Shown in pieces: positions 43,242 through 55,513 of a DNA stretch of 64,000 nucleotides. The notes under the pieces were generated by a model. That model ran no database searches. It was given only the letters and a program-made list of their open reading frames with translations, and was not told where the DNA came from. Both the position numbers and the translations under genes were made by a program. Each line of letters begins with the position of its first letter. The stretch's first letter is position 1. The stretch comes from Minisyncoccota bacterium (GTDB taxonomy: Bacteria > Patescibacteriota > Minisyncoccia > Phycocordibacterales > DATDWN01), in the NCBI GenBank assembly GCA_041658985.1, contig JBAZZC010000003.1:10540-74539 (forward strand), read 5' to 3'.

Positions 43242-44960
43242 ATGAAGGAAATCTTAGAAGAAGAGCTTAAAACGATATTGCGAAATATTGGGATACAGAA
43301 TCCTACGATTACTTTTGATGTGCCTATTCACGTTGAACTGGGGGACTATTCTACAAATGTAGCTATGGCTTATGCAAAACAACTTGGGACAAAACCGGTT
43401 GATTTAGCAGAAGAAATAAAGAAAAAACTCACAGAGAAGAGTATAGAGAATATTTTTAAAATAAATGTTATTGCCCCCGGGTTTTTAAACTTCTTTTTTA
43501 ATGAGAATTATTTTGGCGGTGTTGTGAAAGAGATAATTTTAAAAAAAAATAAATATGGAGAGAGCGACTCTCTTCTAGGGCAAAAAATAATGGTTGAGTT
43601 TACTGACCCGAACCCATTTAAAGAATTTCACATTGGACATTTAATGAGTAACAGCATAGGTGAATCAATTTCTCGAATTTTAGAATCACAAGGGGCCAAG
43701 GTTTTTCGAGCCAACTGGCAAGGGGATGTTGGAGTCCATATTGCTAAGGCGGTGTGGGGCATGTTCCATTCACCACTTTCAAATGATGACAAATCGTCTA
43801 TAGAAAAATCTGTCATCTATCTTGGGAGGTGTTACGCACTTGGTGCTTCACAGTATGAAGAAGATGAAAAGGTAAAAAAGGAAATACAAGAAATAAATAA
43901 TAAGATTTATGAAAAAAGTGACTTAGAGATTAATGAGAAGTATGAATGGGGAAGAAAAGTCAGTTTAGACTATTTTGAAATAATCTACAAAAAACTTGGA
44001 ACAAAATTCGATTACTATTTCTTTGAAAGCAAAGAGGGGGTCCTTGGTAAAAAAATAGTAGAAGAATATTTAGAAAAAGGTATTTTTGAAAAAAGCGACG
44101 GGGCAGTTGTTTTTAAGGGTGAAAAATATGGCTTACACACAAGGGTTTTTATCAATTCAAATGATATACCAACATATGAAGCCAAAGAGTTAGGCCTGAA
44201 CCGAGAGAAATTTATTGTTGAACCAAAGCTTGATCAGTCAGTCATAATTACCGGAAATGAGATAAATGAGTATTTTAAGGTTTTACTGCAGGTTATTTCT
44301 CTGATATTTCCGGAGGTTGGTCAAAAAACAAAACACATTTCTCATGGGATGCTCCGATTACCCGAGGGCAAAATGTCTTCACGAACCGGCAATGTTATTA
44401 CAGCCGAATCACTAATATTAGAAGTTCAACAGAAGACTCTTGAAAAAATGAAAGACAGGAGAATGAGTGAAAAAACACAACAAGAAATTTCTGAGACCAT
44501 AGCTATTGGTGCCCTGAAATATTCCATCCTAAAACAAACGACTGGAAAGGACATAATTTTTGATTTTGATAAGTCGGTTTCATTTGAAGGGGATTCTGGT
44601 CCATATTTACAATATGCAACTGTGCGGGCAAATTCTATTCTAAAAAAATCCGCCTCTTCGGCGGACCAGCCGATGAGGCTGGGCGAAATACCAGAAAATT
44701 GGAAGACCACAAATTTAGAGAGAATTCTTGAGAGATTTCCGTCTGTGATGGAGAGGGCGGGGACAGAGTATGCGCCAAGTCACATTGCCACCTACCTTAT
44801 TGAACTGTCAGGAGAATTCAATTCGTTTTATGCTTCCCACAAAATAATTAATGAGACCGACCCAACATCTTCCTATCGATTAGCCTTAACTCAAGCTTTT
44901 GTTTATATAATGACTTCAGGACTTAATCTTCTGGCGATCAAAATTCCGGAACAAATGTAG
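43242..44960 (+). CDS. argS: Arginine--tRNA ligase
   Basis: HIGH motif in FTDPNPFKEFHIGH, a KMSSR-type motif, and a DALR anticodon-binding domain. Confidence 0.9.
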   Translation: MKEILEEELKTILRNIGIQNPTITFDVPIHVELGDYSTNVAMAYAKQLGTKPVDLAEEIKKKLTEKSIENIFKINVIAPGFLNFFFNENYFGGVVKEIILKKNKYGESDSLLGQKIMVEFTDPNPFKEFHIGHLMSNSIGESISRILESQGAKVFRANWQGDVGVHIAKAVWGMFHSPLSNDDKSSIEKSVIYLGRCYALGASQYEEDEKVKKEIQEINNKIYEKSDLEINEKYEWGRKVSLDYFEIIYKKLGTKFDYYFFESKEGVLGKKIVEEYLEKGIFEKSDGAVVFKGEKYGLHTRVFINSNDIPTYEAKELGLNREKFIVEPKLDQSVIITGNEINEYFKVLLQVISLIFPEVGQKTKHISHGMLRLPEGKMSSRTGNVITAESLILEVQQKTLEKMKDRRMSEKTQQEISETIAIGALKYSILKQTTGKDIIFDFDKSVSFEGDSGPYLQYATVRANSILKKSASSADQPMRLGEIPENWKTTNLERILERFPSVMERAGTEYAPSHIATYLIELSGEFNSFYASHKIINETDPTSSYRLALTQAFVYIMTSGLNLLAIKIPEQM

Positions 44961-44999
44961 TTATTTACAAAAGTATATATTTTAGTTAATATTTAAGTA

Positions 45000-45178
45000 T
45001 AAGCAGTAAAGAGACCAATCACCTCTATGGCTTTGGGAAGAAAGCAGAAATGCAAATAGAACCCAACGGGTGGCCCGTTATAGCCGTAAAGAGAAGTAAG
45101 CAAGGTGGTACCACGAGAAACTCGTCCTTGCATAGCAAGTGTTTGCTGTGTAGGGACGGGTTTTTTATTACAAAAAAT
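45000..45178 (+). promoter_or_regulatory. T-box riboswitch leader with an AUC (Ile) specifier upstream of ileS
   Basis: T-box sequence AAGGTGGTACCACGAG (45102-45117). A 16-bp terminator stem plus GGTTTTTT follows at 45122-45168. The specifier loop ACCAATCAC carries AUC followed by a purine, in the AGAG/CTCT stem at 45010-45030. Confidence 0.55.
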
Positions 45179-48100
45179 ATGGAAAAAGAAAAAATAGAAA
45201 AAAGTGAAGTTGCACTGAAAGAAGAAAAAATCCTGGAGTTTTGGGAGAAAAGTGAAATTTTCAAAAAAACCCTAGAAAAAGAGGCACCAAAAGGGGAGTT
45301 TGTCTTTTACGATGGGCCTCCATTTGCCACTGGTTTGCCTCATCAGGGGACATTGCTTGGTTCCATTGCTAAGGACCTAATTCCTCGCTACAAAACGATG
45401 CGAGGCTACAGTGTGCGTCGTAGATGGGGTTGGGATTGTCACGGTTTACCTATAGAAAATCTTGTAGAGAAGAAACTTGGCCTCAAGCATAAAAAAGATA
45501 TTGAAGAAATGGGTATAGAAAAATTTAACGAAGAATGTCGCAGTCAAGTGTTGACATATGTTCATGATTGGAAAGTGTACATTGACCGCGTGGCTCGTTG
45601 GGTTGATTTTGAGGGCTCTTACAAAACCATGGATTCTAGTTATACCGAAAGTATTTGGTGGGCACTCAAACAAATGAATGACAAAGGCTTGCTTTACGAA
45701 GGCAGAAAAGTTCTTTTGTATTGTCCAAGATGCGAGACTCCTCTTTCTAAAGCAGAGATTGCTATGGACAACTCATATAAAGATATAACGGAAGAGGCGG
45801 TGACAATAAAGTTTAAAATAAAAAATCCAGAAAAACATAAATTACCCCAGAACACATATTTACTTGCATGGACAACAACCCCGTGGACATTACCTGGAAA
45901 CGTTGCACTTGCAGTTGGTAATGATATTGAATATCAAGTAATGAAAAAGGGGCAAGAAACCTATGTTGTTTCTACACAGGTATGGAAACAGGGAATCTTG
46001 GGAGAGTTTGGCAACCTAGCAATAGGAGATGTTCGTAAGGGGGCTGATTTGGTTGGTTTGGAATACGAACCACTTTACGAAATACCTGTTGTAAAAAATA
46101 GTGGCAAAAAAGCTTGGTATGTTACCTCGGCTGATTTTGTTAATACAGAAGAGGGAACGGGTATTGTGCATACGGCGGTAATTTATGGAGAGGATGACTA
46201 TCAACTTGGTCTAAAAGTTGATTTACCAATGGTTCCACTGCTTTTGCCAAATGGAGAGTTTAATAATGAGGCTCCGGAATTTATTCGTGGAATGTATGTG
46301 AAAAAGGCCGAGAGATATATAAAAGAAGATTTGGAAAAAAGAGACTTGCTTTTCAGTAAGACCATGAACACTCACTCATACCCTCATTGTTATCGTTGCG
46401 AAACCCCCCTTATATACAACGCTCTCTCAAGCTGGTTTATTAATATTCAAAAAATAAAAAAACAAGTTATTGATTTGAATGAAAATATAAACTGGGTTCC
46501 GGACCATCTTAAACATGGACGTTTTCTAGATATTGCTCAAAATGCTCCGGACTGGACAATAAGCAGAAATCGCTATTGGGCATCGCCACTGCCAATCTGG
46601 AAAGATGACAAGGGTAAATATATTGTTATTGGAAGTATTTCTGAACTTAAGGATTACATTGGTCGTCGCAATAATTATTTTCTCTTACGTCATGGAGAAT
46701 CGGAAGGAAATGCAAAGGGTGTTATAAGTTGTAAGAAAGATGGTAAAGACTCACTGACTTCTCTTGGTAGAGAAGAATCTCTCTCTTCTGTAAAAGAACT
46801 CAAAAATAAAAAAATAGACATTATTATTTCATCGCCTTTTGTAAGGACACGTGAAACTGCCGAAATTATTGCCGAAGAGATGGGGATTCCAAAAGAGGAA
46901 ATTATCTATGATGATTTGCTTGGTGAGATTTCTTGTGAAAAGTACGATGGGGAATTGTGGACAGGTTTTAATTTCAGGAAAAAAGAAGAAGGGGTTGAAA
47001 CTCCACGCCAGGTTCTCTCGCGAACAATGAAAGTTATGTATGGATTAGATAAAAAATATGAAAGCAAAAACATTTTAATTATTGGACACGGGGGACCACT
47101 TAGAATAATCAAACTTGCGTCAAGTGGTTTAGCAGAGGAAGATATCATGAAGCATTATTATGATGACCCACCAAGAAACGCAAAAACGATTGACTGTGAT
47201 TTTGTGGCATTGCCTCACAATGGGGCATATGAAATTGATTTACACAGGCCATACATTGATGAGGTTGTGCTACATGACAAAGACGGTTCTATTCTCAAGC
47301 GAATACCAGAGGTTATTGACTGTTGGGTTGAATCTGGGTCAATGCCTTTTGCCGAATATAATTATCCGTATTCAAATAAAGAAGAATTTGAGAAAAGAGC
47401 TCCAGGAGATTTTGTGGCTGAGTATATAGCCCAAACCAGAACTTGGTTTTACTACATGCATGTCATCTCTACGGCTCTTTTTGGACGGGAATCTTTTAAA
47501 AATGTTTTGACTACCGGAAATATTCAAGCCAGTGACGGAAGTAAAATGAGTAAGTCAAAGAGTAACTACACAGACCCATTGCTTCTCATGAATAAATACG
47601 GTGCTGACGCTCTGCGTTACTACATGATGACTTCTGTTGTGATGCAGGCAGAGGATTTAAACTTTAAAAATGATGATGTCAAAGAAGTTAACCAAAGAAT
47701 GTTAAATATCTTGCGAAATGTTTTATCTTTCTATGAAATGTATAAGACGGATTTTACTGGAATCCCAAGCAAAAATAATGTTTTGGATAAATGGATTTGT
47801 TCTAGGTTGGCAGTTTTGCACAAAGAAGTAACTGAGGGTCTGGAGAAGTATGACACAATCCGTTCTGGGCGGCCGATAAGACTTTTTATAGAAGATTTAT
47901 CAACTTGGTATTTGCGTCGCTCAAGAGACAGATTCAAATCAGAAAACTTAGAGGAGAGAAAAGAGGTCTCAGAATGTACCGCTTTTATTTTGGTAGAACT
48001 TGCAAAAATAATGGCTCCGTTTACGCCATATATTGCCGAGGAAATTTATCAGGGTGTTAAAGGAAAAAATCATAAAGAAAGTGTACATTTAGAAAATTGG

Positions 48101-48604
48101 ACAGAAAGCATGGAGGATTTTTTAGACAGGGAACTTATTGTTCAAATGCAAAAAGTCAGGGAGGTGGTTACCCAAGCCTTAGATTTACGTCAGAAAGCTG
48201 GGTACAGTGTTAGACAACCTCTGCCATCTCTTGTTGTGTCGCAAAATTTTTCTAAAGAACTATTAGATATTATTGCTGATGAGGTCAATGTAAAAGAAAT
48301 AAAGGTCTTGGAAGGAAGTGAGGTAAGATTGGACACAACCTTAACCGAAGAATTGAAAAACGAAGGAATTGCTCGTAGTGTTATTCGTGGTATCCAGGAT
48401 GTAAGAAAAAATGAAGGTCTTAATCCAGGCGAGAGAATAAAGCTGATTATTTGTGCAGATGAAAAAATAAAATCTGTGATTGTTTCTTTTGAGATTTTAA
48501 TCAAATCTCCAACACAGGTGGTGGAGATAATATACTCAAACGAAAAACAAACTCACGCCATTTCTTTGGGTTCCGGCGAGATGACGGTAACAGTATCTAG
48601 ATAA
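45179..48604 (+). CDS. ileS: Isoleucine--tRNA ligase with an inserted histidine-phosphatase (PGAM-like) domain
   Basis: PHQGT (a HIGH variant), WTTTPWTLPGN, and KMSKS. An internal segment of ~190 aa carries the LLRHGESEGN and IIGHGGPL catalytic motifs of the histidine phosphatase superfamily. Start moved to MEKEKIEK, downstream of the T-box. Confidence 0.85.
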   Translation: MEKEKIEKSEVALKEEKILEFWEKSEIFKKTLEKEAPKGEFVFYDGPPFATGLPHQGTLLGSIAKDLIPRYKTMRGYSVRRRWGWDCHGLPIENLVEKKLGLKHKKDIEEMGIEKFNEECRSQVLTYVHDWKVYIDRVARWVDFEGSYKTMDSSYTESIWWALKQMNDKGLLYEGRKVLLYCPRCETPLSKAEIAMDNSYKDITEEAVTIKFKIKNPEKHKLPQNTYLLAWTTTPWTLPGNVALAVGNDIEYQVMKKGQETYVVSTQVWKQGILGEFGNLAIGDVRKGADLVGLEYEPLYEIPVVKNSGKKAWYVTSADFVNTEEGTGIVHTAVIYGEDDYQLGLKVDLPMVPLLLPNGEFNNEAPEFIRGMYVKKAERYIKEDLEKRDLLFSKTMNTHSYPHCYRCETPLIYNALSSWFINIQKIKKQVIDLNENINWVPDHLKHGRFLDIAQNAPDWTISRNRYWASPLPIWKDDKGKYIVIGSISELKDYIGRRNNYFLLRHGESEGNAKGVISCKKDGKDSLTSLGREESLSSVKELKNKKIDIIISSPFVRTRETAEIIAEEMGIPKEEIIYDDLLGEISCEKYDGELWTGFNFRKKEEGVETPRQVLSRTMKVMYGLDKKYESKNILIIGHGGPLRIIKLASSGLAEEDIMKHYYDDPPRNAKTIDCDFVALPHNGAYEIDLHRPYIDEVVLHDKDGSILKRIPEVIDCWVESGSMPFAEYNYPYSNKEEFEKRAPGDFVAEYIAQTRTWFYYMHVISTALFGRESFKNVLTTGNIQASDGSKMSKSKSNYTDPLLLMNKYGADALRYYMMTSVVMQAEDLNFKNDDVKEVNQRMLNILRNVLSFYEMYKTDFTGIPSKNNVLDKWICSRLAVLHKEVTEGLEKYDTIRSGRPIRLFIEDLSTWYLRRSRDRFKSENLEERKEVSECTAFILVELAKIMAPFTPYIAEEIYQGVKGKNHKESVHLENWTESMEDFLDRELIVQMQKVREVVTQALDLRQKAGYSVRQPLPSLVVSQNFSKELLDIIADEVNVKEIKVLEGSEVRLDTTLTEELKNEGIARSVIRGIQDVRKNEGLNPGERIKLIICADEKIKSVIVSFEILIKSPTQVVEIIYSNEKQTHAISLGSGEMTVTVSR

Positions 48605-48712
48605 TTTCTAATTTTCAATTCTCAATTTTCAAACAATTTCCAATTATAAAATTTCTGAATTAGTAGATTAATTTATTTTTTAGACATTAAAAATTAGAAA
48701 TTGAAAATTTTT
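48603..48712. repeat. AT-rich inverted-repeat pair related to the four-helix-bundle cassette IRs, between ileS and recO
   Basis: TAATTTCTAATTTTCAATTCTCAATTTTC ... AAAAATTAGAAATTGAAAATTTTT. Shares the TAATTTCTAATT start with 551-593. Confidence 0.45.
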
Positions 48713-49300
48713 CTCATGTCCTATCACATTTACACCACAGATGGAATAATTTTAAAACGCAAAACATTTGGAGAAGCCAATGTCTTGTTACATGTTTTAA
48801 CTTATGATTTAGGTTTAATTATTGCTTCGGCTCAGGGGGCCAGACTGTCTTCTTCTAAGCTTCGTTCGGCCCTTCAAGAATATACACTTAATTCCATCTC
48901 GTGCGTTAAAGGTAAAAATGGATGGAAAATGACAAACGCTGTAGAAAAAGAAAACTTCTTTTTTAATTATCCTGCTTATTCTCACAAAACTTTGTCCCAA
49001 GTTGGCTTTGTCTTATTAAAGATGATTCCTGGAGAATCTCCCCACAAAGAAATTTTTCAAACCATAAAGACAGGTTTTGAATTTCTGAAATTTTTGCCGG
49101 AGAAACATGTATCAGATTTTGAGGTTTTGATTGTTTTGCGTATTTTACATCAGCTTGGATATGTAGAAAACAAAAAAGACACAGATAGCTTTTTAGAAAA
49201 TAATGAAGAGTGGAACGAATTAATTCTTGAAAAAGTACTAAAAAACAAGAAAAACATCATTCCAATAATAAACAAGGCCCTAAAGGAAAGTCAGTTATAG
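48701..49300 (+). CDS. recO: DNA repair protein RecO
   Basis: N-terminal OB fold (DGIILKRKTFGEANVLLHVLT) and a Lys-rich region (KGARLSSSKLRS). TTG start. Confidence 0.65.
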   Translation: MKIFLMSYHIYTTDGIILKRKTFGEANVLLHVLTYDLGLIIASAQGARLSSSKLRSALQEYTLNSISCVKGKNGWKMTNAVEKENFFFNYPAYSHKTLSQVGFVLLKMIPGESPHKEIFQTIKTGFEFLKFLPEKHVSDFEVLIVLRILHQLGYVENKKDTDSFLENNEEWNELILEKVLKNKKNIIPIINKALKESQL

Positions 49301-49312
49301 TCAACGTTTAAA

Positions 49313-51229
49313 TTGTTGTGGTATAATATTTGGATGGAATTCGAAAAAAGCAGTATAGAGCGTCTAAAAAGGACTTTATATTCTAGAAATGAAAATGTTG
49401 TTCCGAAGGAAAAACGTACTCCTGTTTCTGGTAAAGAAGTCAATGCCCCTACCGACTGGGGCACAAAACCATCTTTTGATATTCCAATTGACGATACCAT
49501 GACCAAACGAAATCATTCATTTTTTAACAAATTTCTAATTGGTTCTTTCGTTTTCTTTTTTGTTGCCCTTGCTGTGGCTGTTTTTATCTTTTTTGGAGGA
49601 ATGAATACCATTTCTTCCAACAACTTAAATATAAAAATAGTAGCTCCGAGTTCCATGTCTTCTGGAGAAGAGCTTCTGGTGGAGCTTTCTATTATAAATG
49701 ATAATCGTGCAGATTTAGAGCAGGTGGCCTTTTTCGTTGATTATCCAGAGGGAGCTTTGTCAGTTGGAGAAAACAAACCTTTGTCCCGTGATAAAGTAGA
49801 TTTGGGTGTTATTTCTAGTGGTGGCAGTAAAGATTATGTGGTTCGTGCAATATTGTCTGGCGAGAAAGAAACAGTTAAGACTTTTCATTTCAAAATAGAA
49901 TATAAAGTAAAAGGGTCAAATGCTGTTTTTTCAAAGGAAAAAACTTATGATGTCATAATTAGTTCATCACCAATCATTCTAGACGTTTCATATCCAAAAG
50001 AGATAAATTCTGGTCAAGAGGTAAACTTGTCTATAGATTTAATTTCTAATTCAAATGTGATAATTAAAAACTCTCTAATAAAAATTGAATATCCATACGG
50101 TTTTACTTATAAAAACTCAAACATAAAACCTTCAAGAGATAATTCTGTTTGGAATACAGGCGACCTGAAAAATGGTGATAAAAAAACTTTGCTAATTAAT
50201 GGTGTTTTGGTTGGTCAGAATTTAGAAGATAGGTCTTTCAAAATATCTGCGGGGACCCAAAAACCTGGAACAACAGTAGATTTTGAAACGCCATTAGCTA
50301 CTAGTGTGGTGACAATAGGAATACGCAAGTCATTTTTTGATCTTGTTATCGATTCAGAGCCTGTCTCAGTAATGGGTTATCTTATGCCAGTGACAATTAA
50401 GTGGCAAAATATTTTACCTGATAAGATATTGAACACAAACATAGTGGCAACAATCTCTGGGAATATTTTTGACAGAACAACTGTGAAAGCTAACGATGGT
50501 GGATTTTATAGGTCAGTTGATGATACTATCCTTTGGGACAAAAACAGTACAAGTAATTTAACAAGTATCTCTCCGGGTGATTCCGGTGAGGTCTCATTTC
50601 TAATTTCTTCTCTTCGAGATTCAATTCAGACTAAGTCAATAAAAAATCCACATATTGACGTAAATATAAAATCAACAGGAGACCGCTCTGGAACAGAAAC
50701 TGGAATAGTCTCGTCCAGTGAAAATATTACAATAAAAATTTCGTCATCCTTTGTGCTTACCGTCAAAGCTTTTCGTAATCTCGGACCGTTTAGTAATATA
50801 GGACCTATTCCTCCTAGAGCAGATAAAGAATCTACTTATACAGTAGTCTGGACATTGACCAATGCGAATAATGATCTGAAAGACACCTTAGTGACAGCTG
50901 TCTTACCAGCCGGAGTAGAATGGAAAAATGAAATTTCTCCTATCGGGGAAAAATTAAGTTTTAACCAGGAAACAAGAGTCTTATCATGGAATATAGGTAA
51001 TGTCTCCTTAGGTACAGGTTTCACTTATTCACCAAAGGAAGTTTATTTTAAAATTGGAATAATTCCAAGTGTTAGTCAAATTAATTCTATTCCAAATTTG
51101 CTTTCTAAAATTAATTTAATAACCACTGATACTTATACAGAAACACAACTAACATCTGATATTTTTTCGGTTACTACCCAGTATTCTGACCCAAGTTATA
51201 AAAGTGGTGATAATATGGTTGTGAAATAA
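49313..51229 (+). CDS. Large membrane-anchored extracellular hypothetical protein
   Basis: N-terminal transmembrane helix (FLIGSFVFFFVALAVAVFIFFGG) followed by ~550 aa of beta-rich repeats. Confidence 0.5.
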   Translation: MLWYNIWMEFEKSSIERLKRTLYSRNENVVPKEKRTPVSGKEVNAPTDWGTKPSFDIPIDDTMTKRNHSFFNKFLIGSFVFFFVALAVAVFIFFGGMNTISSNNLNIKIVAPSSMSSGEELLVELSIINDNRADLEQVAFFVDYPEGALSVGENKPLSRDKVDLGVISSGGSKDYVVRAILSGEKETVKTFHFKIEYKVKGSNAVFSKEKTYDVIISSSPIILDVSYPKEINSGQEVNLSIDLISNSNVIIKNSLIKIEYPYGFTYKNSNIKPSRDNSVWNTGDLKNGDKKTLLINGVLVGQNLEDRSFKISAGTQKPGTTVDFETPLATSVVTIGIRKSFFDLVIDSEPVSVMGYLMPVTIKWQNILPDKILNTNIVATISGNIFDRTTVKANDGGFYRSVDDTILWDKNSTSNLTSISPGDSGEVSFLISSLRDSIQTKSIKNPHIDVNIKSTGDRSGTETGIVSSSENITIKISSSFVLTVKAFRNLGPFSNIGPIPPRADKESTYTVVWTLTNANNDLKDTLVTAVLPAGVEWKNEISPIGEKLSFNQETRVLSWNIGNVSLGTGFTYSPKEVYFKIGIIPSVSQINSIPNLLSKINLITTDTYTETQLTSDIFSVTTQYSDPSYKSGDNMVVK

Positions 51230-51272
51230 GGAAAGTGGCGAGAATCTAGCATCTAAGTTAATATAGGGTATT

Positions 51273-52661
51273 ATGACTGAAAACAAGAATGACAGAATGG
51301 AAAAGATAGTCTCGCTTTGCAAGAGACGTGGTTTTGTTTATCCATCCTCAGAAATATATGGTGGTTTTGCCGGTGTGTATGATTTTGGACCAATGGGAGT
51401 TGAGCTTGAAAATAATCTCAAAACACATTGGTGGAAATGGATGGTTCATAAAAGACAAGATGTTGTTGGACTAGACTCTAGTATTTTTATGAGCCCACAA
51501 ATTTGGGAGGCCTCTGGTCATACTAAGGGTTTTTCTGACCCAATGGCTGAGTGTAAGGAATGCAATACCAGAATAAGAGTCGATAAGGTACTAAACGATT
51601 TAGGAATTTTTGCTGATGAAAAAATGTCCGAAGAAGAAATCAACAAGCTTTTTGATGAGAATAAATCAAAAATTAAATGTCCTAATTGTAAAAAGCAAAA
51701 TTTTACAAAAGTCAGGAAGTTTAATGTGTTGGTAAAGTCCAATCTTGGTGATTTTACTGAATCCAATTCTAGTCCGTCATATTTGAGAGGAGAAACTTGC
51801 CAAGGGATATATGTAAATTTCAAAAACGTTCTTGATTCACAGCATCCAAAATTGCCTTTTGGTATTGCTCAGATTGGTAAAGCATTTAGGAATGAAATTT
51901 CTGCAAGGCAGTTTCTTTTTAGACTCAGGGAGTTTGAACAGATGGAAATGGAATATTTTACAAGGCCAAAGGATGAAATGGGTGAATATGAAAAATTAAA
52001 AGAATATAGATGGAAGGCAATTTTAAGTCTGGGAATTAAAGAAGAAAATTTGCGATGGAAAAAACACGATAACTTGGTTTTTTACGCAAAAGAAGCATAT
52101 GACATAGAATACAACTTTCCATGGGGATTTGATGAACTAGAGGGGATTCATGCTCGTGGAAATTACGATTTAACACAACATTCTAGTGGGTCAGGAAAAG
52201 AATTGGTCTATCAAGACGAAGAAACAAATGAAAAATTTATTCCGCACATTGTTGAGTCGTCTGGTGGTGTCAGTCGGTTATTTTTTGCAATTCTTTGTGA
52301 CGCTTATCATGAAGACGAAATGGGCGGAGAGACTAGGATTCTTCTAAAACTAAAACCAAGTATTGCACCAATTAAGGTTGCTGTTTTTCCACTTCTAAAA
52401 AACAAACCAGAACTTGTAAATAAAGCCAAGGAAATTTTTGGTTTATTAAATGAAGAAATTCAACCGGTAACATTTGACGATAATGGAAACATAGGCAAAC
52501 GATATCGTAGACAAGATGAGATTGGCACACCATTCTGTGTGACGATTGATTTTGAAACAATTGAAAAAGATGCTGGAGTAACTGTTCGTAATCGTGACAC
52601 TGGAGAACAAGAAAGGGTTCCTGTTATTGAGCTAGTTTCATATCTTAAATCTAAAATATAA
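51273..52661 (+). CDS. glyQS: Glycine--tRNA ligase (dimeric alpha2 type) with a Zn-ribbon insertion
   Basis: Class II motifs (FRNEISARQFLFRLREFEQMEME), a C-terminal anticodon-binding domain, and a CxxC...CxxC insert. Confidence 0.85.
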   Translation: MTENKNDRMEKIVSLCKRRGFVYPSSEIYGGFAGVYDFGPMGVELENNLKTHWWKWMVHKRQDVVGLDSSIFMSPQIWEASGHTKGFSDPMAECKECNTRIRVDKVLNDLGIFADEKMSEEEINKLFDENKSKIKCPNCKKQNFTKVRKFNVLVKSNLGDFTESNSSPSYLRGETCQGIYVNFKNVLDSQHPKLPFGIAQIGKAFRNEISARQFLFRLREFEQMEMEYFTRPKDEMGEYEKLKEYRWKAILSLGIKEENLRWKKHDNLVFYAKEAYDIEYNFPWGFDELEGIHARGNYDLTQHSSGSGKELVYQDEETNEKFIPHIVESSGGVSRLFFAILCDAYHEDEMGGETRILLKLKPSIAPIKVAVFPLLKNKPELVNKAKEIFGLLNEEIQPVTFDDNGNIGKRYRRQDEIGTPFCVTIDFETIEKDAGVTVRNRDTGEQERVPVIELVSYLKSKI

Positions 52662-52793
52662 ATCCGAACACTAACTTTGGCATCGTTGCACATCTCCACA
52701 CGTAGATGTAAACGATAGTCTAGATGTAGATTCATATTTTGTATTAATACTCACTTAGCAACAAGGAGATAATGCCAAAGTTAGTGTGCGGAT
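52662..52793 (+). repeat. R135 inverted-repeat element, copy G
   Basis: ATCCGAACACTAACTTTGGCAT ... ATGCCAAAGTTAGTGTGCGGAT. It begins 1 nt after the glyQS stop codon. Confidence 0.8.
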
Positions 52794-52963
52794 AAGTTTT
52801 TACAAAACAAGATTTAGGTGGTACTATTGGCCTATGGATCCCGTTAGAAATCCCTTGGTTGATTTGTAAAAAATGGATTTTAACGAGAAACCTAATTATT
52901 AAGATATATTAACTAATTAAATGCGGAAAGGCTTTAGTAAAAGGCTTTCCTATTTCTAACGGG

Positions 52964-54034
52964 ATGGATAAAGAGCAAGTCATTAGTATTAGTCTTGGTA
53001 CAATTATTAAGACAGTATTTGTTATTTTGTTTTTTGCACTCCTTTTTTACTTGAAGGATTTAGTTCTTGTGTTACTTTTGTCTATAGTCATTGCTTCTGC
53101 TGTAGAACCAGGGACACAATGGCTTGTTCGGCGCAGAATACCCCGTCTTTTTTCTGTGATTTTCATATATGTAGCCATTGCTATATGTTTTGCTGGTGTT
53201 ATCTTTTTTCTTTTAATACCACTACTTTCTGAATCAAGTGATCTTTTAAGAAATTTTCCAACCTATTTTAAGGCCGGAAGTATTTCTAATTCATTAAATA
53301 ATAACAACTTTTTTTCCTCACAATCAATAAACAGTTTTACGAACAGTCTAAATTTAGAACAAATTACTGAACAGATTAATAATATTATAAATGGTATATA
53401 TTCAAATACGTTCAATACCGTTGCTGTCTTTTTTGGAGGAGTCTTATCTTTTCTTTTAACGGTAATTTTGTCTTTTTATCTAGCCATGGAGGAAGACGGT
53501 GTTGGTAAATTTTTGAAAGCCATCTCTCCCATTAAACACGAAAAATACATAACTTCTCTTTGGAAAAGGTCTCAAAGAAAAATAGGTCTTTGGATGCAAG
53601 GACAGCTTATTTTGGCAATTATTATTGGAACACTTGTTTATCTAGGCCTACTAATCATTAATGTTCCCAATGCCTTACTTCTGGCCACCCTGGCCGCTGT
53701 TTTTGAGATTATTCCACTTTTTGGACCAATTCTTGCCTCAATACCGGCCATTGCAATTGCTTTTATGACTGGAGGAGTTTCTTTGGCTGCCCTTGTTGCT
53801 GGCTTGTATATTATTATTCACCAATTTGAGAATCAACTTATTTATCCACTGGTTGTCAAAAAAGTTGTTGGTGTTTCACCGATAGTTTCCATAATGGCGC
53901 TGGCTATTGGATGGCAATTAGCCGGATTTGTCGGTGTTATTCTGTCGGTTCCATTAGCTTCGGCCATTATTGAATTTTTTGATGATATTGAAAAGGATAA
54001 AATTGAGAAATTCGAAAAGATGAATGCTCAGTAA
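52964..54034 (+). CDS. AI-2E family transporter (PerM/UPF0118)
   Basis: Eight transmembrane helices with the FEIIPLFGPILASIPAI motif. Confidence 0.75.
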   Translation: MDKEQVISISLGTIIKTVFVILFFALLFYLKDLVLVLLLSIVIASAVEPGTQWLVRRRIPRLFSVIFIYVAIAICFAGVIFFLLIPLLSESSDLLRNFPTYFKAGSISNSLNNNNFFSSQSINSFTNSLNLEQITEQINNIINGIYSNTFNTVAVFFGGVLSFLLTVILSFYLAMEEDGVGKFLKAISPIKHEKYITSLWKRSQRKIGLWMQGQLILAIIIGTLVYLGLLIINVPNALLLATLAAVFEIIPLFGPILASIPAIAIAFMTGGVSLAALVAGLYIIIHQFENQLIYPLVVKKVVGVSPIVSIMALAIGWQLAGFVGVILSVPLASAIIEFFDDIEKDKIEKFEKMNAQ

Positions 54035-54040
54035 GTCGAA

Positions 54041-54073
54041 AGTTTATAAAGTCTGTAAAGTCCATAAAGTAGA
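54041..54073. repeat. Tandem TTATAAAGT-type 9-bp repeats (reverse orientation) immediately upstream of metG
   Basis: AGTTTATAAAGTCTGTAAAGTCCATAAAGTAG. Confidence 0.5.
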
Positions 54074-55513
54074 ATGCAAAAGAATTTTTATATTACGACC
54101 ACTTTGCCATATGTAAATTCAGACCCACACATCGGGTTTGCTATGGAAATTATCCGTGCCGATATAATTGCAAGAGCGAAAAAATTACAGGGGTTTGAGG
54201 TGTTTTTTAACACCGGAACAGATGAACACGGCCAAAAAATTTTGAAAGGAGCGGAAAAGGAAAACGAAGAAATAAAAAAATATGTTGATAAATATGCGGA
54301 ACGCTTCAGAGGTCTTATTGATTTACTTCAAATTTCTAACGACATTCATTTTATTAGAACAACGGATTTAGGCCACCAAAAAGCGGCAACACATTTTTGG
54401 AAAATTTGTGATGAAAACGGATTTATCTATAAAAAAGCATACAAGATAAAATATTGTGTCGGTTGTGAGTTGGAAAAAACTGACTCTGAACTTGAAAATG
54501 GTAAATGTCCTCTCCATCCTAATTCAGAAATTGAATTAATTGATGAAGAAAATTATTTTTTTAAGTTTTCTGCCTTTCAGGAAAAATTACTCAATCTGTA
54601 TTCAAAAAGACTGGATTTTGTAGTTCCTGATTTTAGGCAGAACGAAATTAAAATGTTTGTAGAAAGAGGGCTTGAGGATTTTTCTATCTCTCGATTAAAA
54701 TCAAAAATGTCCTGGGGAATACCTGTACCCGGAGATGACGAGCATGTTATGTATGTTTGGTTTGATGCATTGGTGAACTATATATCAACTTTAGGTTGGC
54801 CAGAAAACAAAGAAAACTTTGAAAAATTTTGGATGAATGGCACACCTATCCAATATGCTGGAAAGGATAATTTACGTCAGCAGAGTGCCATGTGGCAGGC
54901 CATGCTTTTGGCTGCCGATCTTCCTCTGTCACACCAGATTGTTATAAATGGTTTTTTCACAGGTGAAGGTGGGGTAAAAATGAGCAAAAGTATAGGCAAT
55001 GTTGTTAACCCCTATGATATTGTGGAGAAATATGGAGCAGAGGCTCTCCGATATTATGTTTGTGGTGAAGTCTCTATGTTTGAAGACAGCCCGGTCTCGG
55101 AAGAATTAATTAAATCATCTTATAACGCCAAATTAGCAAATGGTTTGGGTAATTTAGTTTCAAGAATAATGAAAATGGCTCAAGATAATTTGGATGAGCC
55201 AGTTTCAATCCCTGAATTTGAGGATATGCGTGAGTATTTTGGTTTACTTAATAAATATGAAATCGGAAAAGCTGTCCAAATGATTTGGACGGAGATAGGA
55301 GCAATGGATTTATTTATTCAAGAAAACCAGCCATTCAAAATAATTAAAACCGACAAAACAAAAGGCCAAAAAATGATATCTGATTTAGTTGTTCGGCTTT
55401 ATTCTGTTGCTAGAAAGCTCAATCCTATTCTACCAGAAACATCAGATAAAATTAAAAAACTTATAAAAGAAAATAAAGCTCCGGAGGTACCACTTTTTTT
55501 AAGAAAAGAATAA
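54074..55513 (+). CDS. metG: Methionine--tRNA ligase (short form without the C-terminal tRNA-binding domain)
   Basis: HIGH-type motif PHIGFA and KMSKS. The EMAP-like domain is a separate gene at 20420-20776. Confidence 0.9.
   Translation: MQKNFYITTTLPYVNSDPHIGFAMEIIRADIIARAKKLQGFEVFFNTGTDEHGQKILKGAEKENEEIKKYVDKYAERFRGLIDLLQISNDIHFIRTTDLGHQKAATHFWKICDENGFIYKKAYKIKYCVGCELEKTDSELENGKCPLHPNSEIELIDEENYFFKFSAFQEKLLNLYSKRLDFVVPDFRQNEIKMFVERGLEDFSISRLKSKMSWGIPVPGDDEHVMYVWFDALVNYISTLGWPENKENFEKFWMNGTPIQYAGKDNLRQQSAMWQAMLLAADLPLSHQIVINGFFTGEGGVKMSKSIGNVVNPYDIVEKYGAEALRYYVCGEVSMFEDSPVSEELIKSSYNAKLANGLGNLVSRIMKMAQDNLDEPVSIPEFEDMREYFGLLNKYEIGKAVQMIWTEIGAMDLFIQENQPFKIIKTDKTKGQKMISDLVVRLYSVARKLNPILPETSDKIKKLIKENKAPEVPLFLRKE

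What the first reader, a model, noticed from the sequence alone, without database searches (positions are those of the whole stretch)
46660..47125. Histidine-phosphatase (PGAM-like) domain inserted inside the catalytic core of IleS
Between the WASPLPIW segment and the DLHRPYIDEV...WVESGSMPF segment of IleS there is a segment of ~190 aa. It carries the two signature motifs of the histidine phosphatase superfamily, LLRHGESEGN (catalytic RHG) and IIGHGGPL (second His). This is a single uninterrupted ORF of 1141 aa. I know of no IleS with an embedded phosphatase domain. It could be a moonlighting or regulatory module, for example acting on phosphorylated nucleotides or alarmones, or a proofreading-related one.
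Basis: partly seen in the sequence, partly recalled or inferred. Interest (0 to 1): 0.8.

Follow-up and report, generated by a model that had tools for sequence, protein, structure and literature searches.

The report
Active phosphatase domain nested inside IleRS
The isoleucyl-tRNA synthetase of this Paceibacteria (candidate phyla radiation) bacterium carries a complete, apparently active histidine-phosphatase domain spliced into a surface loop of its catalytic core; the arrangement is real, is conserved in at least 120 related species, and I found no description of it in the searchable literature.

Summary
ORF 45179-48604 (+) encodes a 1141-aa type-2 IleRS (TIGR00392 816 bits, cutoff 621). 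A ~190-aa His_Phos_1 domain (PF00300, E 4.7e-24) sits at aa 493-684 and replaces ~8 residues at the tip of the CP3 subdomain.

It is not an assembly artefact. An identical protein is on an independently assembled contig. All 120 listed homologues (52-66% identity over 119 distinct sequences, many sources) share the architecture. The junction motif occurs in at least 120 GTDB species genomes, including one closed chromosome.

The catalytic residues R504, H505, R556 and H637 are invariant and E583 is 98% conserved, while the rest of the insert has drifted to ~37% identity. The domain is therefore almost certainly an active enzyme. Its closest characterised relatives are small-molecule phosphatases (PhoE, PspA, an ARPP phosphatase, CobC), not mutases.

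The same phosphatase subfamily also sits at two other IleRS sites and in ValRS, in one to four copies, and is fused to TsaC.

My best reading is a bifunctional enzyme whose phosphatase is tethered to the aminoacylation machinery rather than built into it. The substrate is unknown. I found no paper describing it. I rate it a new variant of a known kind, interest ~0.66.

The parts
44951..45172 (+). T-box-like leader with an Ile (AUC) specifier candidate and an intrinsic terminator, directly upstream of ileS
   Evidence: Rfam RF00230 scores 47.3 bits, E 1.4e-9, below the gathering score of 93. The T-box core GGTGGTACCACG is at 45104-45115 and CCAATCACC at 45015-45023. The hairpin 45117-45164 has dG -32.9 kcal/mol, z -8.2, and is followed by a U-run.
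45179..48604 (+). Complete ileS gene with nested phosphatase (1141 aa plus stop)
   Evidence: ORF list. TIGR00392 ileS scores 815.9 bits against a cutoff of 621.4. Identical to P0036. AF2 model has mean pLDDT 90.8 and pTM 0.83. Best fold match is IleRS2 8c8u, E 2.6e-81.
45179..46654 (+). IleRS N-terminal part (aa 1-492): first Rossmann half, CP core, CP1 editing domain, CP2, and the ascending arm of CP3
   Evidence: Pfam tRNA-synt_1 covers aa 17-492. Aligns to 8c8u residues 12-476. The editing motif WTTTPWT (aa 231-237) is invariant in 119 sequences.
45341..45352 (+). HIGH signature, here H-Q-G-T (fourth His replaced)
   Evidence: Translation. The motif is HxG[ST] in 91 of 121 aligned sequences (about 75%), and 18 keep HxGH.
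46655..47230 (+). Inserted histidine-phosphatase (branch 1) domain, aa 493-684
   Evidence: Pfam PF00300 E 4.7e-24. The stand-alone AF2 model has pLDDT 94.3 and pTM 0.91. Foldseek top hits are PhoE 1h2e, PspA 4ij6 and HFP 9mmh, at TM 0.72-0.78.
46688..46696 (+). R504-H505-G506: the catalytic RHG motif, with the nucleophilic His
   Evidence: R504 and H505 are invariant and G506 is 98% conserved in 121 aligned sequences.
46844..46846 (+). R556, the second phosphate-binding Arg (SPFVR)
   Evidence: Invariant.
46925..46927 (+). E583, the putative general acid
   Evidence: 98% Glu, the rest Asp. The R-H-R-E-H pentad is kept in nearly all copies in all contexts.
47087..47089 (+). H637, the second catalytic His (IIGHGG)
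   Evidence: Invariant.
47231..48601 (+). IleRS C-terminal part (aa 685-1141): descending CP3 arm, second Rossmann half with KMSKS (47543-47557), anticodon-binding domain, and type-2 C-terminal domains
   Evidence: Pfam Anticodon_1 covers aa 870-1016 and DUF5915 aa 1049-1140. Aligns to 8c8u residues 485-869. KMSKS confirmed by translation.

Best explanation
This is the organism's working type-2 isoleucyl-tRNA synthetase. At the tip of its CP3 connective-peptide hairpin, where T. thermophilus IleRS has a zinc knuckle, it hosts a complete, catalytically competent branch-1 histidine phosphatase. The insertion is ancient and vertically inherited in Paceibacteria. Shown: the domain identity, the exact insertion point, the intact IleRS and phosphatase catalytic residues, the wide conservation, and a confident fold prediction. 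Inferred: the protein is bifunctional. The phosphatase works through the standard mechanism (H505 attacks a phosphomonoester to form a phospho-histidine; R504, R556 and H637 hold the phosphate; E583 protonates the leaving group). It acts on a small phosphorylated metabolite or nucleotide, like its nearest characterised relatives PhoE, PspA, CobC and HFP. It is tethered to IleRS, made 1:1 with it under the same tRNA-Ile-sensing T-box-like leader, rather than taking part in aminoacylation or editing chemistry. The substrate is not identified.
For: Identity and insertion point. CP3 is a defined subdomain that varies in topology between IleRSs (PMC7191050). Not an artefact: an identical protein on an independent Logan contig; all 120 listed homologues (119 distinct sequences at 52-66% identity) carry PF00300; the junction motif is in at least 120 GTDB species genomes, including the closed chromosome CP060229.1. 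Active site under selection: R504, H505, S552, R556, R615 and H637 are invariant, and N511 and E583 are 98% conserved, while insert identity to the query averages 37% against 61% for the IleRS core. Small-molecule phosphatase type: best fold and sequence matches are PhoE, PspA, the riboflavin-pathway HFP, CobC and GpgP. Tethered rather than integrated: the same subfamily occurs at three IleRS sites. One of them is the loop after the first 24-residue helix of the anticodon-binding domain. From the helix length I infer that this loop lies far from the catalytic core; no distance was measured. The subfamily also occurs in ValRS, in one to four tandem copies, nearly all with an intact R-H-R-E-H pentad (with secondary structure). 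An unrelated Ser_hydrolase occupies site 2 in P0246. Apart from typical HP-family motifs, the only positions at least 90% conserved across 119 aligned sequences are S497, N498 and Y500 at the N-terminal junction (N498 and Y500 also occur in stand-alone homologues) and the F675/P679/H680 junction residues. Net charge of the insert is -1.8 per 100 aa, the same as the rest of the protein, so there is no gross RNA-binding signature. Patescibacterial proteins fuse readily with unrelated enzymes: TsaC is found fused to Ogt, TruB, 2H, NUDIX, GNAT, MPG and this phosphatase.
Against: Among the 150 best representative clusters, 103 are embedded in IleRS or ValRS. At least 4-5 separate insertion events hit these two paralogous enzymes, against one other carrier (TsaC). 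That is hard to explain by random piggy-backing and suggests a functional link with Ile/Val charging. The junctions are well conserved and confidently modelled (pLDDT ~89-95, pTM 0.83), which is compatible with a fixed, purposeful orientation. T-box-like control by tRNA-Ile charging would be an odd regulator for an unrelated housekeeping phosphatase. No substrate, activity or geometry was measured, and the model coordinates could not be read.
Confidence: 0.5

Rival explanations
1. The phosphatase is functionally integrated with tRNA charging and forms a third catalytic site of class Ia synthetases. It could remove a 3'-phosphate, pyrophosphate or 2',3'-cyclic phosphate from damaged or toxin-modified tRNA CCA ends before charging. 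Alternatively it could hydrolyse the PPi or AMP products that the editing futile cycles of IleRS and ValRS release in large amounts.
For: The subfamily has inserted repeatedly and preferentially into IleRS (three sites) and ValRS. These are the two closest class Ia paralogues, both with mobile tRNA 3' ends and ATP-consuming editing. A further fusion is to TsaC, another ATP-to-adenylate-plus-PPi enzyme of tRNA metabolism, and one such gene lies near the CCA-adding enzyme and TGT. CP3 starts directly after the CP2-CP3 linker, which in yeast IleRS helps form the pocket occupied by reveromycin A at the tRNA binding site (PMC7955072). Expression is under a tRNA-Ile-sensing leader. This window's copy has a cap region ~13 residues shorter than most, which should give a more open active site.
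Against: The three IleRS sites are unlikely to converge on one point of the enzyme-tRNA complex, and tandem arrays of 2-4 active copies do not fit a geometry-dependent site. The domain is mildly acidic, and its only extra conserved residues are a few next to the junctions. TsaC in this phylum is fused to many unrelated enzymes, so that fusion is weak evidence. To my knowledge no branch-1 histidine phosphatase is known to act on RNA ends or PPi (my own knowledge, not tested). LeuRS and MetRS, which would need the same service, were not seen with the domain; the MetG in this window has no such domain.
Confidence: 0.25
2. The domain is the lineage's 'missing' glycolytic phosphoglycerate mutase (a short, archaeal-type cofactor-dependent PGM), carried on IleRS.
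For: The best NCBIfam hit for the insert is dPGM_arch (NF038349), at 64.5 bits. Jaffe et al. 2020 report that PGM is not detected in several shallow Parcubacteria clades, possibly because it is too divergent (PMC7304191). The monomeric S. pombe PGM 1fzt is among the best fold matches, at TM 0.78.
Against: The score is far below the equivalog cutoff (64.5 against 225). The motifs read RHGESEGN and GHGG where the S. pombe dPGM aligned has RHGESEWN; that dPGMs read HGN at the second histidine is from my own knowledge. The closest sequence match in the PDB is a phosphatase (9mmh, riboflavin pathway), and PhoE and PspA match equally well. Four tandem copies in a ValRS and control by a T-box are hard to rationalise for a glycolytic enzyme.
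Confidence: 0.1
3. The domain is not mainly a metabolic enzyme. It could be a regulatory or assembly module: a phospho-metabolite or phospho-histidine sensor that tunes IleRS, a protein phosphatase that reverses inhibitory phosphorylation of the synthetase, or a dimerisation handle that joins IleRS and ValRS into a complex.
For: It is inserted into a loop of the catalytic domain, where conformational changes could be transmitted. To my knowledge, members of this superfamily commonly oligomerise and include protein phosphatases (SixA, Sts-1, PGAM5). Both IleRS and ValRS carry the domain.
Against: Near-absolute conservation of all five catalytic residues in every context argues for turnover, not mere binding. 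The only extra conserved residues are a few next to the junctions, so there is no obvious protein interface. Nothing here tests phosphorylation of the synthetase.
Confidence: 0.1
4. It is an assembly chimera or a pseudogene.
For: None beyond the a priori oddity of the architecture.
Against: An identical 1141-aa protein is on an independently assembled contig. All 120 listed homologues from NCBI, JGI, ENA and Logan share the architecture. At least 120 species genomes have it, including a closed chromosome. The reading frame is intact and composition is continuous across the junctions. The AF2 model is confident.
Confidence: 0.01

Closest known systems
Type-2 (eukaryote/archaea-like) bacterial IleRS, e.g. 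Priestia megaterium IleRS2 (PDB 8c8u) and Thermus thermophilus IleRS (1ile)
   Same: Full-length homology on both sides of the insert (E 4.4e-211 and 8.1e-204; Foldseek E 2.6e-81). It has the KMSKS loop, the CP1 editing motifs and the type-2 C-terminal domains (PF19302).
   Different: About 190 aa of phosphatase replace ~8 residues at the CP3 tip. The CP3 zinc-knuckle cysteines are lost here (kept in 20 of 121 relatives). The HIGH motif is HQGT rather than HxGH.
Bacillus stearothermophilus PhoE/YhfR broad-specificity phosphatase (1h2e, 1ebb) and related small histidine phosphatases: PspA phosphoserine phosphatase (4ij5), the riboflavin-pathway HFP (9mmh), and CobC (6nru, 6e4b)
   Same: Same fold (TM 0.72-0.78), the same R-H-R-E-H catalytic set, and a similarly small cap region.
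   Different: Only 18-26% identity. All NCBIfam equivalog cutoffs are missed. Those enzymes are free-standing, whereas this one is nested in another enzyme, with its N and C termini leading back into IleRS.
NCBIfam NF040702 'isoleucine--tRNA ligase, N-acetyltransferase domain-containing' (ileS_w_GNAT)
   Same: A curated precedent for an IleRS that carries an extra enzymatic domain.
   Different: It carries a different accessory domain (GNAT, not a histidine phosphatase). This protein scores 320 bits against a cutoff of 1999, so it is not a member. I did not examine where the GNAT sits.
Mycobacterial bifunctional RNase H/acid phosphatase (NF005567, Rv2228c type)
   Same: A CobC-like branch-1 histidine phosphatase joined in one polypeptide to an enzyme of nucleic-acid metabolism. 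The insert matches the phosphatase half of that model at 46.7 bits.
   Different: That is an end-to-end fusion, not a nested insertion. The partner enzyme is different, and the score is far below the cutoff of 326.
Lineage-specific insertion and appended domains of aaRSs (the LeuRS leucine-specific domain, the INS subdomain in ARD2 of IleRS2, eukaryotic appended domains)
   Same: Extra modules grafted onto surface loops or ends of a class I synthetase (bioRxiv 10.64898/2026.02.03.703510).
   Different: As far as I know those modules are non-catalytic tRNA-binding or protein-interaction elements. This one is a complete second enzyme with a conserved active site.

Membership tests
Isoleucyl-tRNA synthetase (TIGR00392 ileS; type 2) | Whole-protein HMM score above the curated equivalog cutoff | tested here: met
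   815.9 bits against a cutoff of 621.4, matched in two stretches on either side of the insert.
Isoleucyl-tRNA synthetase (TIGR00392 ileS; type 2) | Class I signature motifs HIGH and KMSKS | tested here: inconclusive
   KMSKS is present at aa 789-793. The HIGH position reads HQGT, with the fourth His replaced. Of 121 aligned sequences, 91 have HxG[ST]. The effect on activity is unknown.
Isoleucyl-tRNA synthetase (TIGR00392 ileS; type 2) | CP1 editing domain with the Thr-rich peptide and the conserved Asp | tested here: met
   WTTTPWT (aa 231-237) and D340 are invariant in 119 sequences. The isolated CP1 structures 1wk8 and 1ue0 match aa 199-403.
Isoleucyl-tRNA synthetase (TIGR00392 ileS; type 2) | Type-2 C-terminal organisation (ARD2/ARD3, no C-terminal zinc-binding domain) | tested here: met
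   PF19302 (DUF5915) covers aa 1049-1140. The best structural matches are IleRS2 and eukaryotic IleRS rather than IleRS1.
Isoleucyl-tRNA synthetase (TIGR00392 ileS; type 2) | Aminoacylation of tRNA-Ile | not testable with these tools
   Indirect support only: a T-box-like leader with a candidate AUC specifier lies upstream.
Histidine phosphatase superfamily, branch 1 (PF00300) | Profile score above the Pfam gathering threshold | tested here: met
   85.6 bits against 21.7, E 4.7e-24, aa 501-654.
Histidine phosphatase superfamily, branch 1 (PF00300) | Catalytic core: the RHG His nucleophile, two Arg, the second His and an acidic proton donor | tested here: met
   R504, H505, R556, E583 and H637 are present. 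They are invariant or 98% conserved in 121 aligned sequences, and retained in nearly all copies in other contexts.
Histidine phosphatase superfamily, branch 1 (PF00300) | The alpha/beta/alpha phosphoglycerate-mutase-like fold | tested here: met
   The AF2 model of the insert has pLDDT 94.3 and pTM 0.91. Foldseek matches PhoE, PspA, HFP, TIGAR and PGM at E ~1e-10 and TM 0.7-0.78.
Histidine phosphatase superfamily, branch 1 (PF00300) | Phosphatase or mutase activity | not testable with these tools
   Needs an enzyme assay.
Cofactor-dependent phosphoglycerate mutase (dPGM; NF038349, TIGR01258 etc.) | Score above the equivalog cutoff | tested here: not met
   dPGM_arch scores 64.5 against a cutoff of 225, and the other dPGM models score at most 35 against cutoffs of at least 261.
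Alpha-ribazole phosphatase CobC (TIGR03162) / phosphoserine phosphatase PspA (NF045917) | Score above the equivalog cutoff | tested here: not met
   50.2 against 162.9 for CobC, and 37.2 against 350 for PspA.
T-box leader (RF00230), for the upstream element | Covariance-model score above the Rfam gathering threshold | tested here: not met
   47.3 bits against 93 (E 1.4e-9). The conserved T-box core and the terminator are present, but Stem I is much shorter than in the model.

The most novel reading that the evidence does not exclude
The nested phosphatase is a third catalytic site of Paceibacterial class Ia synthetases that acts on the aminoacylation cycle itself. For example, it could strip a 3'-phosphate, pyrophosphate or 2',3'-cyclic phosphate from damaged or toxin-modified tRNA CCA ends so they can be charged. 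Or it could destroy the PPi or AMP released by the costly editing cycles of IleRS and ValRS. That would explain why the same domain was captured repeatedly by IleRS and ValRS.
Probability: 0.2. Interest if true: 0.9.

Novelty: new variant of a known kind. Interest (0 to 1): 0.66.

Why it matters
Aminoacyl-tRNA synthetases are among the most conserved enzymes known. In bacteria they rarely carry extra catalytic domains, least of all inside the Rossmann-fold core. Here a whole class of ultra-small, uncultivated bacteria keeps an apparently active phosphatase inside IleRS. Relatives show the same domain at other sites, in ValRS, and in up to four copies. If the phosphatase serves the charging cycle, that would be a new kind of aaRS accessory activity. 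If it is an autonomous enzyme riding on IleRS, it is a clear example of how genome-reduced CPR bacteria pack functions by nesting enzymes in one another. It would also be a trap for metabolic reconstructions, which may count this insert as a 'phosphoglycerate mutase'. Either way it is directly testable with recombinant protein.

Tried and rejected
1. The word-indexed search with the insert alone returned only free-standing 180-230-aa phosphatases at 49% identity or less (40% or less among the six best). It missed even the identical protein, which briefly suggested a singleton. The whole-protein search and the exhaustive HMMER search overturned this, so the miss was a sensitivity artefact of the word index.
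2. The search for related loci with the insert alignment failed because no 7-10-column stretch was conserved enough. I replaced it with a degenerate junction DNA pattern.
3. The gene neighbourhoods of the free-standing relatives P0001 and P0007 were uninformative.
4. An 'adenylate-forming enzyme / PPi' theme was suggested by the TsaC-phosphatase fusion. It weakened when Patescibacterial TsaC proved to be fused to many unrelated enzymes; only 4 clusters carry the phosphatase.
5. A gross-charge test for an RNA-binding surface was negative: -1.8 net charge per 100 aa, the same as the core.
6. Nearest-neighbour identity among domain copies could not resolve whether the site-2, site-3 and ValRS copies are independent captures or internal transpositions. 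All pairs are 31-48% identical.
7. The distance between the phosphatase pocket and the synthetic site or tRNA path could not be measured. Model coordinates are not exposed, and the afdb50 library was unavailable.
8. Six literature searches and a 2026 IleRS-evolution preprint gave no mention of the architecture.
9. No second histidine-phosphatase gene was found in the 64-kb window.
Full report
**1. The observation**

The window holds one uninterrupted ORF at 45050-48604 (+). Its biological start is ATG 45179, which gives a 1141-aa protein identical to database entry P0036, a Candidatus Paceibacterota MAG protein. Pfam splits it into three parts: tRNA-synt_1 (aa 17-492), His_Phos_1 (PF00300, aa 501-654, E 4.7e-24, 85.6 bits against a gathering score of 21.7), and the rest of the class I catalytic domain followed by Anticodon_1 and DUF5915. 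NCBIfam places the whole protein above the ileS equivalog cutoff (TIGR00392, 815.9 against 621.4 bits).

- WASPLPIW, aa 467-474
- LLRHGESEGN, aa 502-511
- IIGHGGPL, aa 634-641
- DLHRPYID, aa 687-694

Aligned with Priestia megaterium IleRS2 (8c8u), query residues 492 to 685 correspond to chain residues 476 to 485. So ~190 aa replace ~8 aa. The full insert is 46655-47230, and the finding's coordinates cover most of it. GC content and skew show no discontinuity at the junctions.

**2. Where exactly it sits**

Published IleRS structures define a CP3 subdomain between CP2 and the second half of the Rossmann fold (residues 473-534 in C. albicans, 459-526 in yeast). Its topology differs between species, and in T. 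thermophilus it contains a zinc-binding motif (PMC7191050; PMC7955072). The insert is at the tip of this CP3 hairpin. In 20 of 121 aligned sequences the zinc-knuckle cysteines flanking the insert are still present. They are lost in this protein.

**3. It is not an artefact, and it is not rare**

- An identical 1141-aa protein is encoded on an independently assembled 3,987-bp Logan contig from run SRR6484324.
- All 120 best hits of the whole-protein search carry PF00300 together with the synthetase domains. They comprise P0036 itself plus 119 distinct homologues at 52-66% identity, 1080-1209 aa long, from NCBI, JGI, ENA and Logan assemblies.
Their labels are Paceibacterota, Parcubacteria, Nomurabacteria, Zambryskibacteria and the like, and they include the closed 994,774-bp chromosome CP060229.1.
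- In 105 of these loci an RHG motif lies within 230 aa upstream of the junction. Five more read RHA, and the rest are cut by the locus edge.

**4. Both enzymes look functional**

For IleRS:
- The KMSKS loop, the Thr-rich editing peptide WTTTPWT, D340 and many other core residues are invariant in 119 sequences.
- The HIGH motif is unusual: HQGT here. Of 121 aligned sequences, 91 read HxG[ST] and 18 keep HxGH.
- A T-box-like leader lies directly upstream (RF00230, 47.3 bits, E 1.4e-9, below the gathering score). It has the conserved GGUGGUACCACG core, a candidate AUC+A specifier, and a -32.9 kcal/mol terminator followed by a U-run. This fits the organism's working, charging-regulated ileS.

For the phosphatase:
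- R504, H505, S552, R556, R615 and H637 are invariant.
- G506, N511 and E583 are 98% conserved.
- Identity of the insert to the query averages only 37%, against 61% for the IleRS core. This pattern indicates selection on catalysis.

AlphaFold2 models are confident: the whole protein has pLDDT 90.8 and pTM 0.83, and the insert alone has pLDDT 94.3 and pTM 0.91.

**5. What kind of histidine phosphatase**

By sequence, the best solved relative is 9mmh (E 2.1e-10), a histidine-family phosphatase of riboflavin biosynthesis. By fold, the top hits are PhoE/YhfR, PspA phosphoserine phosphatase, 9mmh, TIGAR, monomeric S. pombe PGM, mycobacterial GpgP and CobC, all at TM 0.7-0.78 and 17-26% identity. 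Every NCBIfam equivalog cutoff is missed (dPGM_arch 64.5 against 225; CobC 50 against 163; PspA 37 against 350). It therefore belongs to the small-cap, small-molecule phosphatase part of branch 1, and its specificity cannot be assigned from sequence.

**6. The wider picture**

An exhaustive HMMER search of 1.84 billion representatives with the insert gave 5831 hits at E of 1e-3 or better, and 535 at 1e-10 or better. The 150 best break down as follows:

| Context | Count |
|---|---|
| Embedded in IleRS (full-length proteins and fragments) | 98 |
| Embedded in ValRS | 5 |
| Fused to the C terminus of TsaC | 1 |
| Tandem phosphatase-only proteins | 3 |
| Short proteins: fragments and real free-standing ~190-aa homologues | the rest |

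Mapping against the query shows three distinct IleRS insertion sites:

| Site | Position in the query | Copies found |
|---|---|---|
| 1 | aa 492\|685, in CP3 (the site in this window) | 94 domains |
| 2 | aa ~731\|740, a loop after the WxESG strand | 3 |
| 3 | aa ~856\|865, the loop after the first helix of the anticodon-binding domain | 5 |

Further variation on the theme:
- Some proteins combine sites 1+3 or 2+3.
- Some carry two or three tandem copies at site 1.
- One ValRS fragment has four copies.
- One IleRS has a Ser_hydrolase domain at site 2 and the phosphatase at site 3.

Nearly every copy, in every context, keeps the R-H-R-E-H pentad. These variants lie on long contigs, up to 1.06 Mb, and one is labelled Candidatus Peribacteria, another CPR lineage.

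**7. Interpretation**

The facts that bear on mechanism pull two ways.

For a tethered, autonomous phosphatase:
- The three sites are unlikely to converge on one point. Site 3 lies at the far end of a 24-residue helix leading away from the catalytic domain, so I infer it is distant from the core. No distance was measured.
- Copy number varies from one to four.
- An unrelated hydrolase can occupy the same kind of loop.
- Beyond typical HP-family motifs, the only highly conserved positions are S497, N498 and Y500 at the N-terminal junction and F675, P679 and H680 at the C-terminal junction. N498 and Y500 also occur in stand-alone homologues.
- The insert's net charge is mildly acidic, like the rest of the protein.
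- Patescibacteria fuse unrelated enzymes freely. TsaC alone is found joined to Ogt, TruB, 2H phosphoesterase, NUDIX, GNAT, a DNA glycosylase and this phosphatase.

For functional coupling:
- At least four or five separate capture events hit the two closest class Ia paralogues.
- The junctions are conserved and confidently modelled.
- Expression is governed by a tRNA-Ile-sensing leader.

I judge the tethered bifunctional-enzyme reading the most likely (about 0.5). The alternatives are:
- integration with the charging cycle, through tRNA 3'-end repair or PPi/AMP removal (about 0.25);
- a 'missing PGM' role (about 0.1; PMC7304191, notes undetected PGM in some Parcubacteria);
- a regulatory or assembly role (about 0.1);
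- an artefact (about 0.01).

The substrate remains unknown, and the geometry could not be measured because model coordinates are not exposed.

**8. Novelty**

Six full-text searches found no paper that describes a histidine phosphatase in an aaRS. A 2026 survey of IleRS domain evolution does not mention it either. The proteins are in public databases, but only under generic names such as 'class I tRNA ligase family protein' or 'isoleucyl-tRNA synthetase'. NCBI does curate a separate exception model for an IleRS with a GNAT domain, but none for this architecture. I therefore rate it a new variant of a known kind: a known enzyme with an undescribed nested second enzyme. It is of clear interest to the aaRS and CPR fields and is directly testable.

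Noticed in passing
window 44951-45172 (+): A T-box-like leader lies upstream of ileS: RF00230 at 47.3 bits (below the gathering score of 93), E 1.4e-9. It has the conserved core GGTGGTACCACG (45104-45115), a candidate Ile specifier AUC+A in CCAATCACC (45015-45023), a very short Stem I, and a strong terminator (45117-45164, -32.9 kcal/mol, z -8.2) followed by a U-run. The core 12-mer occurs within 350 nt upstream of IleS in 10 of 73 relatives' loci. T-boxes in Patescibacteria may be under-detected by the Rfam threshold.
   Followed up: partly
window 45341-45352 (aa 55-58): The class I HIGH signature reads HQGT. Across 121 aligned sequences it is H-x-G-[ST] in 91 (about 75%), and only 18 keep HxGH. 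Loss of the fourth histidine is unusual for IleRS, and its kinetic consequence is unknown.
   Followed up: partly
window 46604-46612 and 47276-47284 (aa 476-478, 700-702): The CP3 zinc-knuckle cysteines that flank the insertion point are lost in this protein (D476, D700, D702). They are retained together in 20 of 121 aligned sequences, so the phosphatase was inserted into a former Cys4 hairpin and the metal site decayed afterwards in most lineages.
   Followed up: partly
proteins P0173, P0176, P0189, P0201, P0221, P0246, P0210, P0232, P0156, P0242, P0286, P0200 (representative library): The same phosphatase subfamily is found at two further IleRS sites and in ValRS, in one to four tandem copies. 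P0246 has a Ser_hydrolase (PF06821) domain at IleRS site 2 plus the phosphatase at site 3. P0210 is labelled Candidatus Peribacteria. The P0173 cluster sits on contigs up to 1.06 Mb.
   Followed up: partly
proteins P0184, P0306-P0422; loci L123-L125: Patescibacterial TsaC (t6A synthesis) acts as a fusion hub. Most homologues carry an Ogt-type DNA_binding_1 domain. Others carry TruB, 2H/LigT phosphoesterase, NUDIX, GNAT, methylpurine glycosylase or this histidine phosphatase (4 clusters). The TsaC-phosphatase gene of P0307 lies near the CCA-adding enzyme, TGT and a queuosine-salvage gene.
   Followed up: partly
window 46925-47010 (aa 583-611); alignment A2: This window's phosphatase has a cap region ~13 residues shorter than most homologues, and an atypical N-terminal junction (YIGRRNNYF instead of TKKSGNxYF). 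P0072 shares both features. Its insert is the closest to the query's in the 20-sequence alignment A2 (60% identity), although the whole protein is only 54-55% identical. This could mean exchange of the insert between lineages or uneven rates of change.
   Followed up: no
L006 (QYPD01000003.1, 8,466-bp contig): An IleS with the nested phosphatase and an intact CxxC knuckle sits in a MAG labelled 'Spirochaetia bacterium'. This is probably a mis-binned Patescibacteria contig rather than a true occurrence outside the CPR.
   Followed up: no
window 43242-55513: Four aaRS genes lie within 12 kb: ArgS (43242-44960), IleS, a class II synthetase (51273-52661) and a short MetG (54074-55513). Between them are a RecO-like gene (48701-49300) and a 638-aa ORF with no Pfam match (49313-51229). 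No other histidine-phosphatase gene is present in the 64-kb window.
   Followed up: partly
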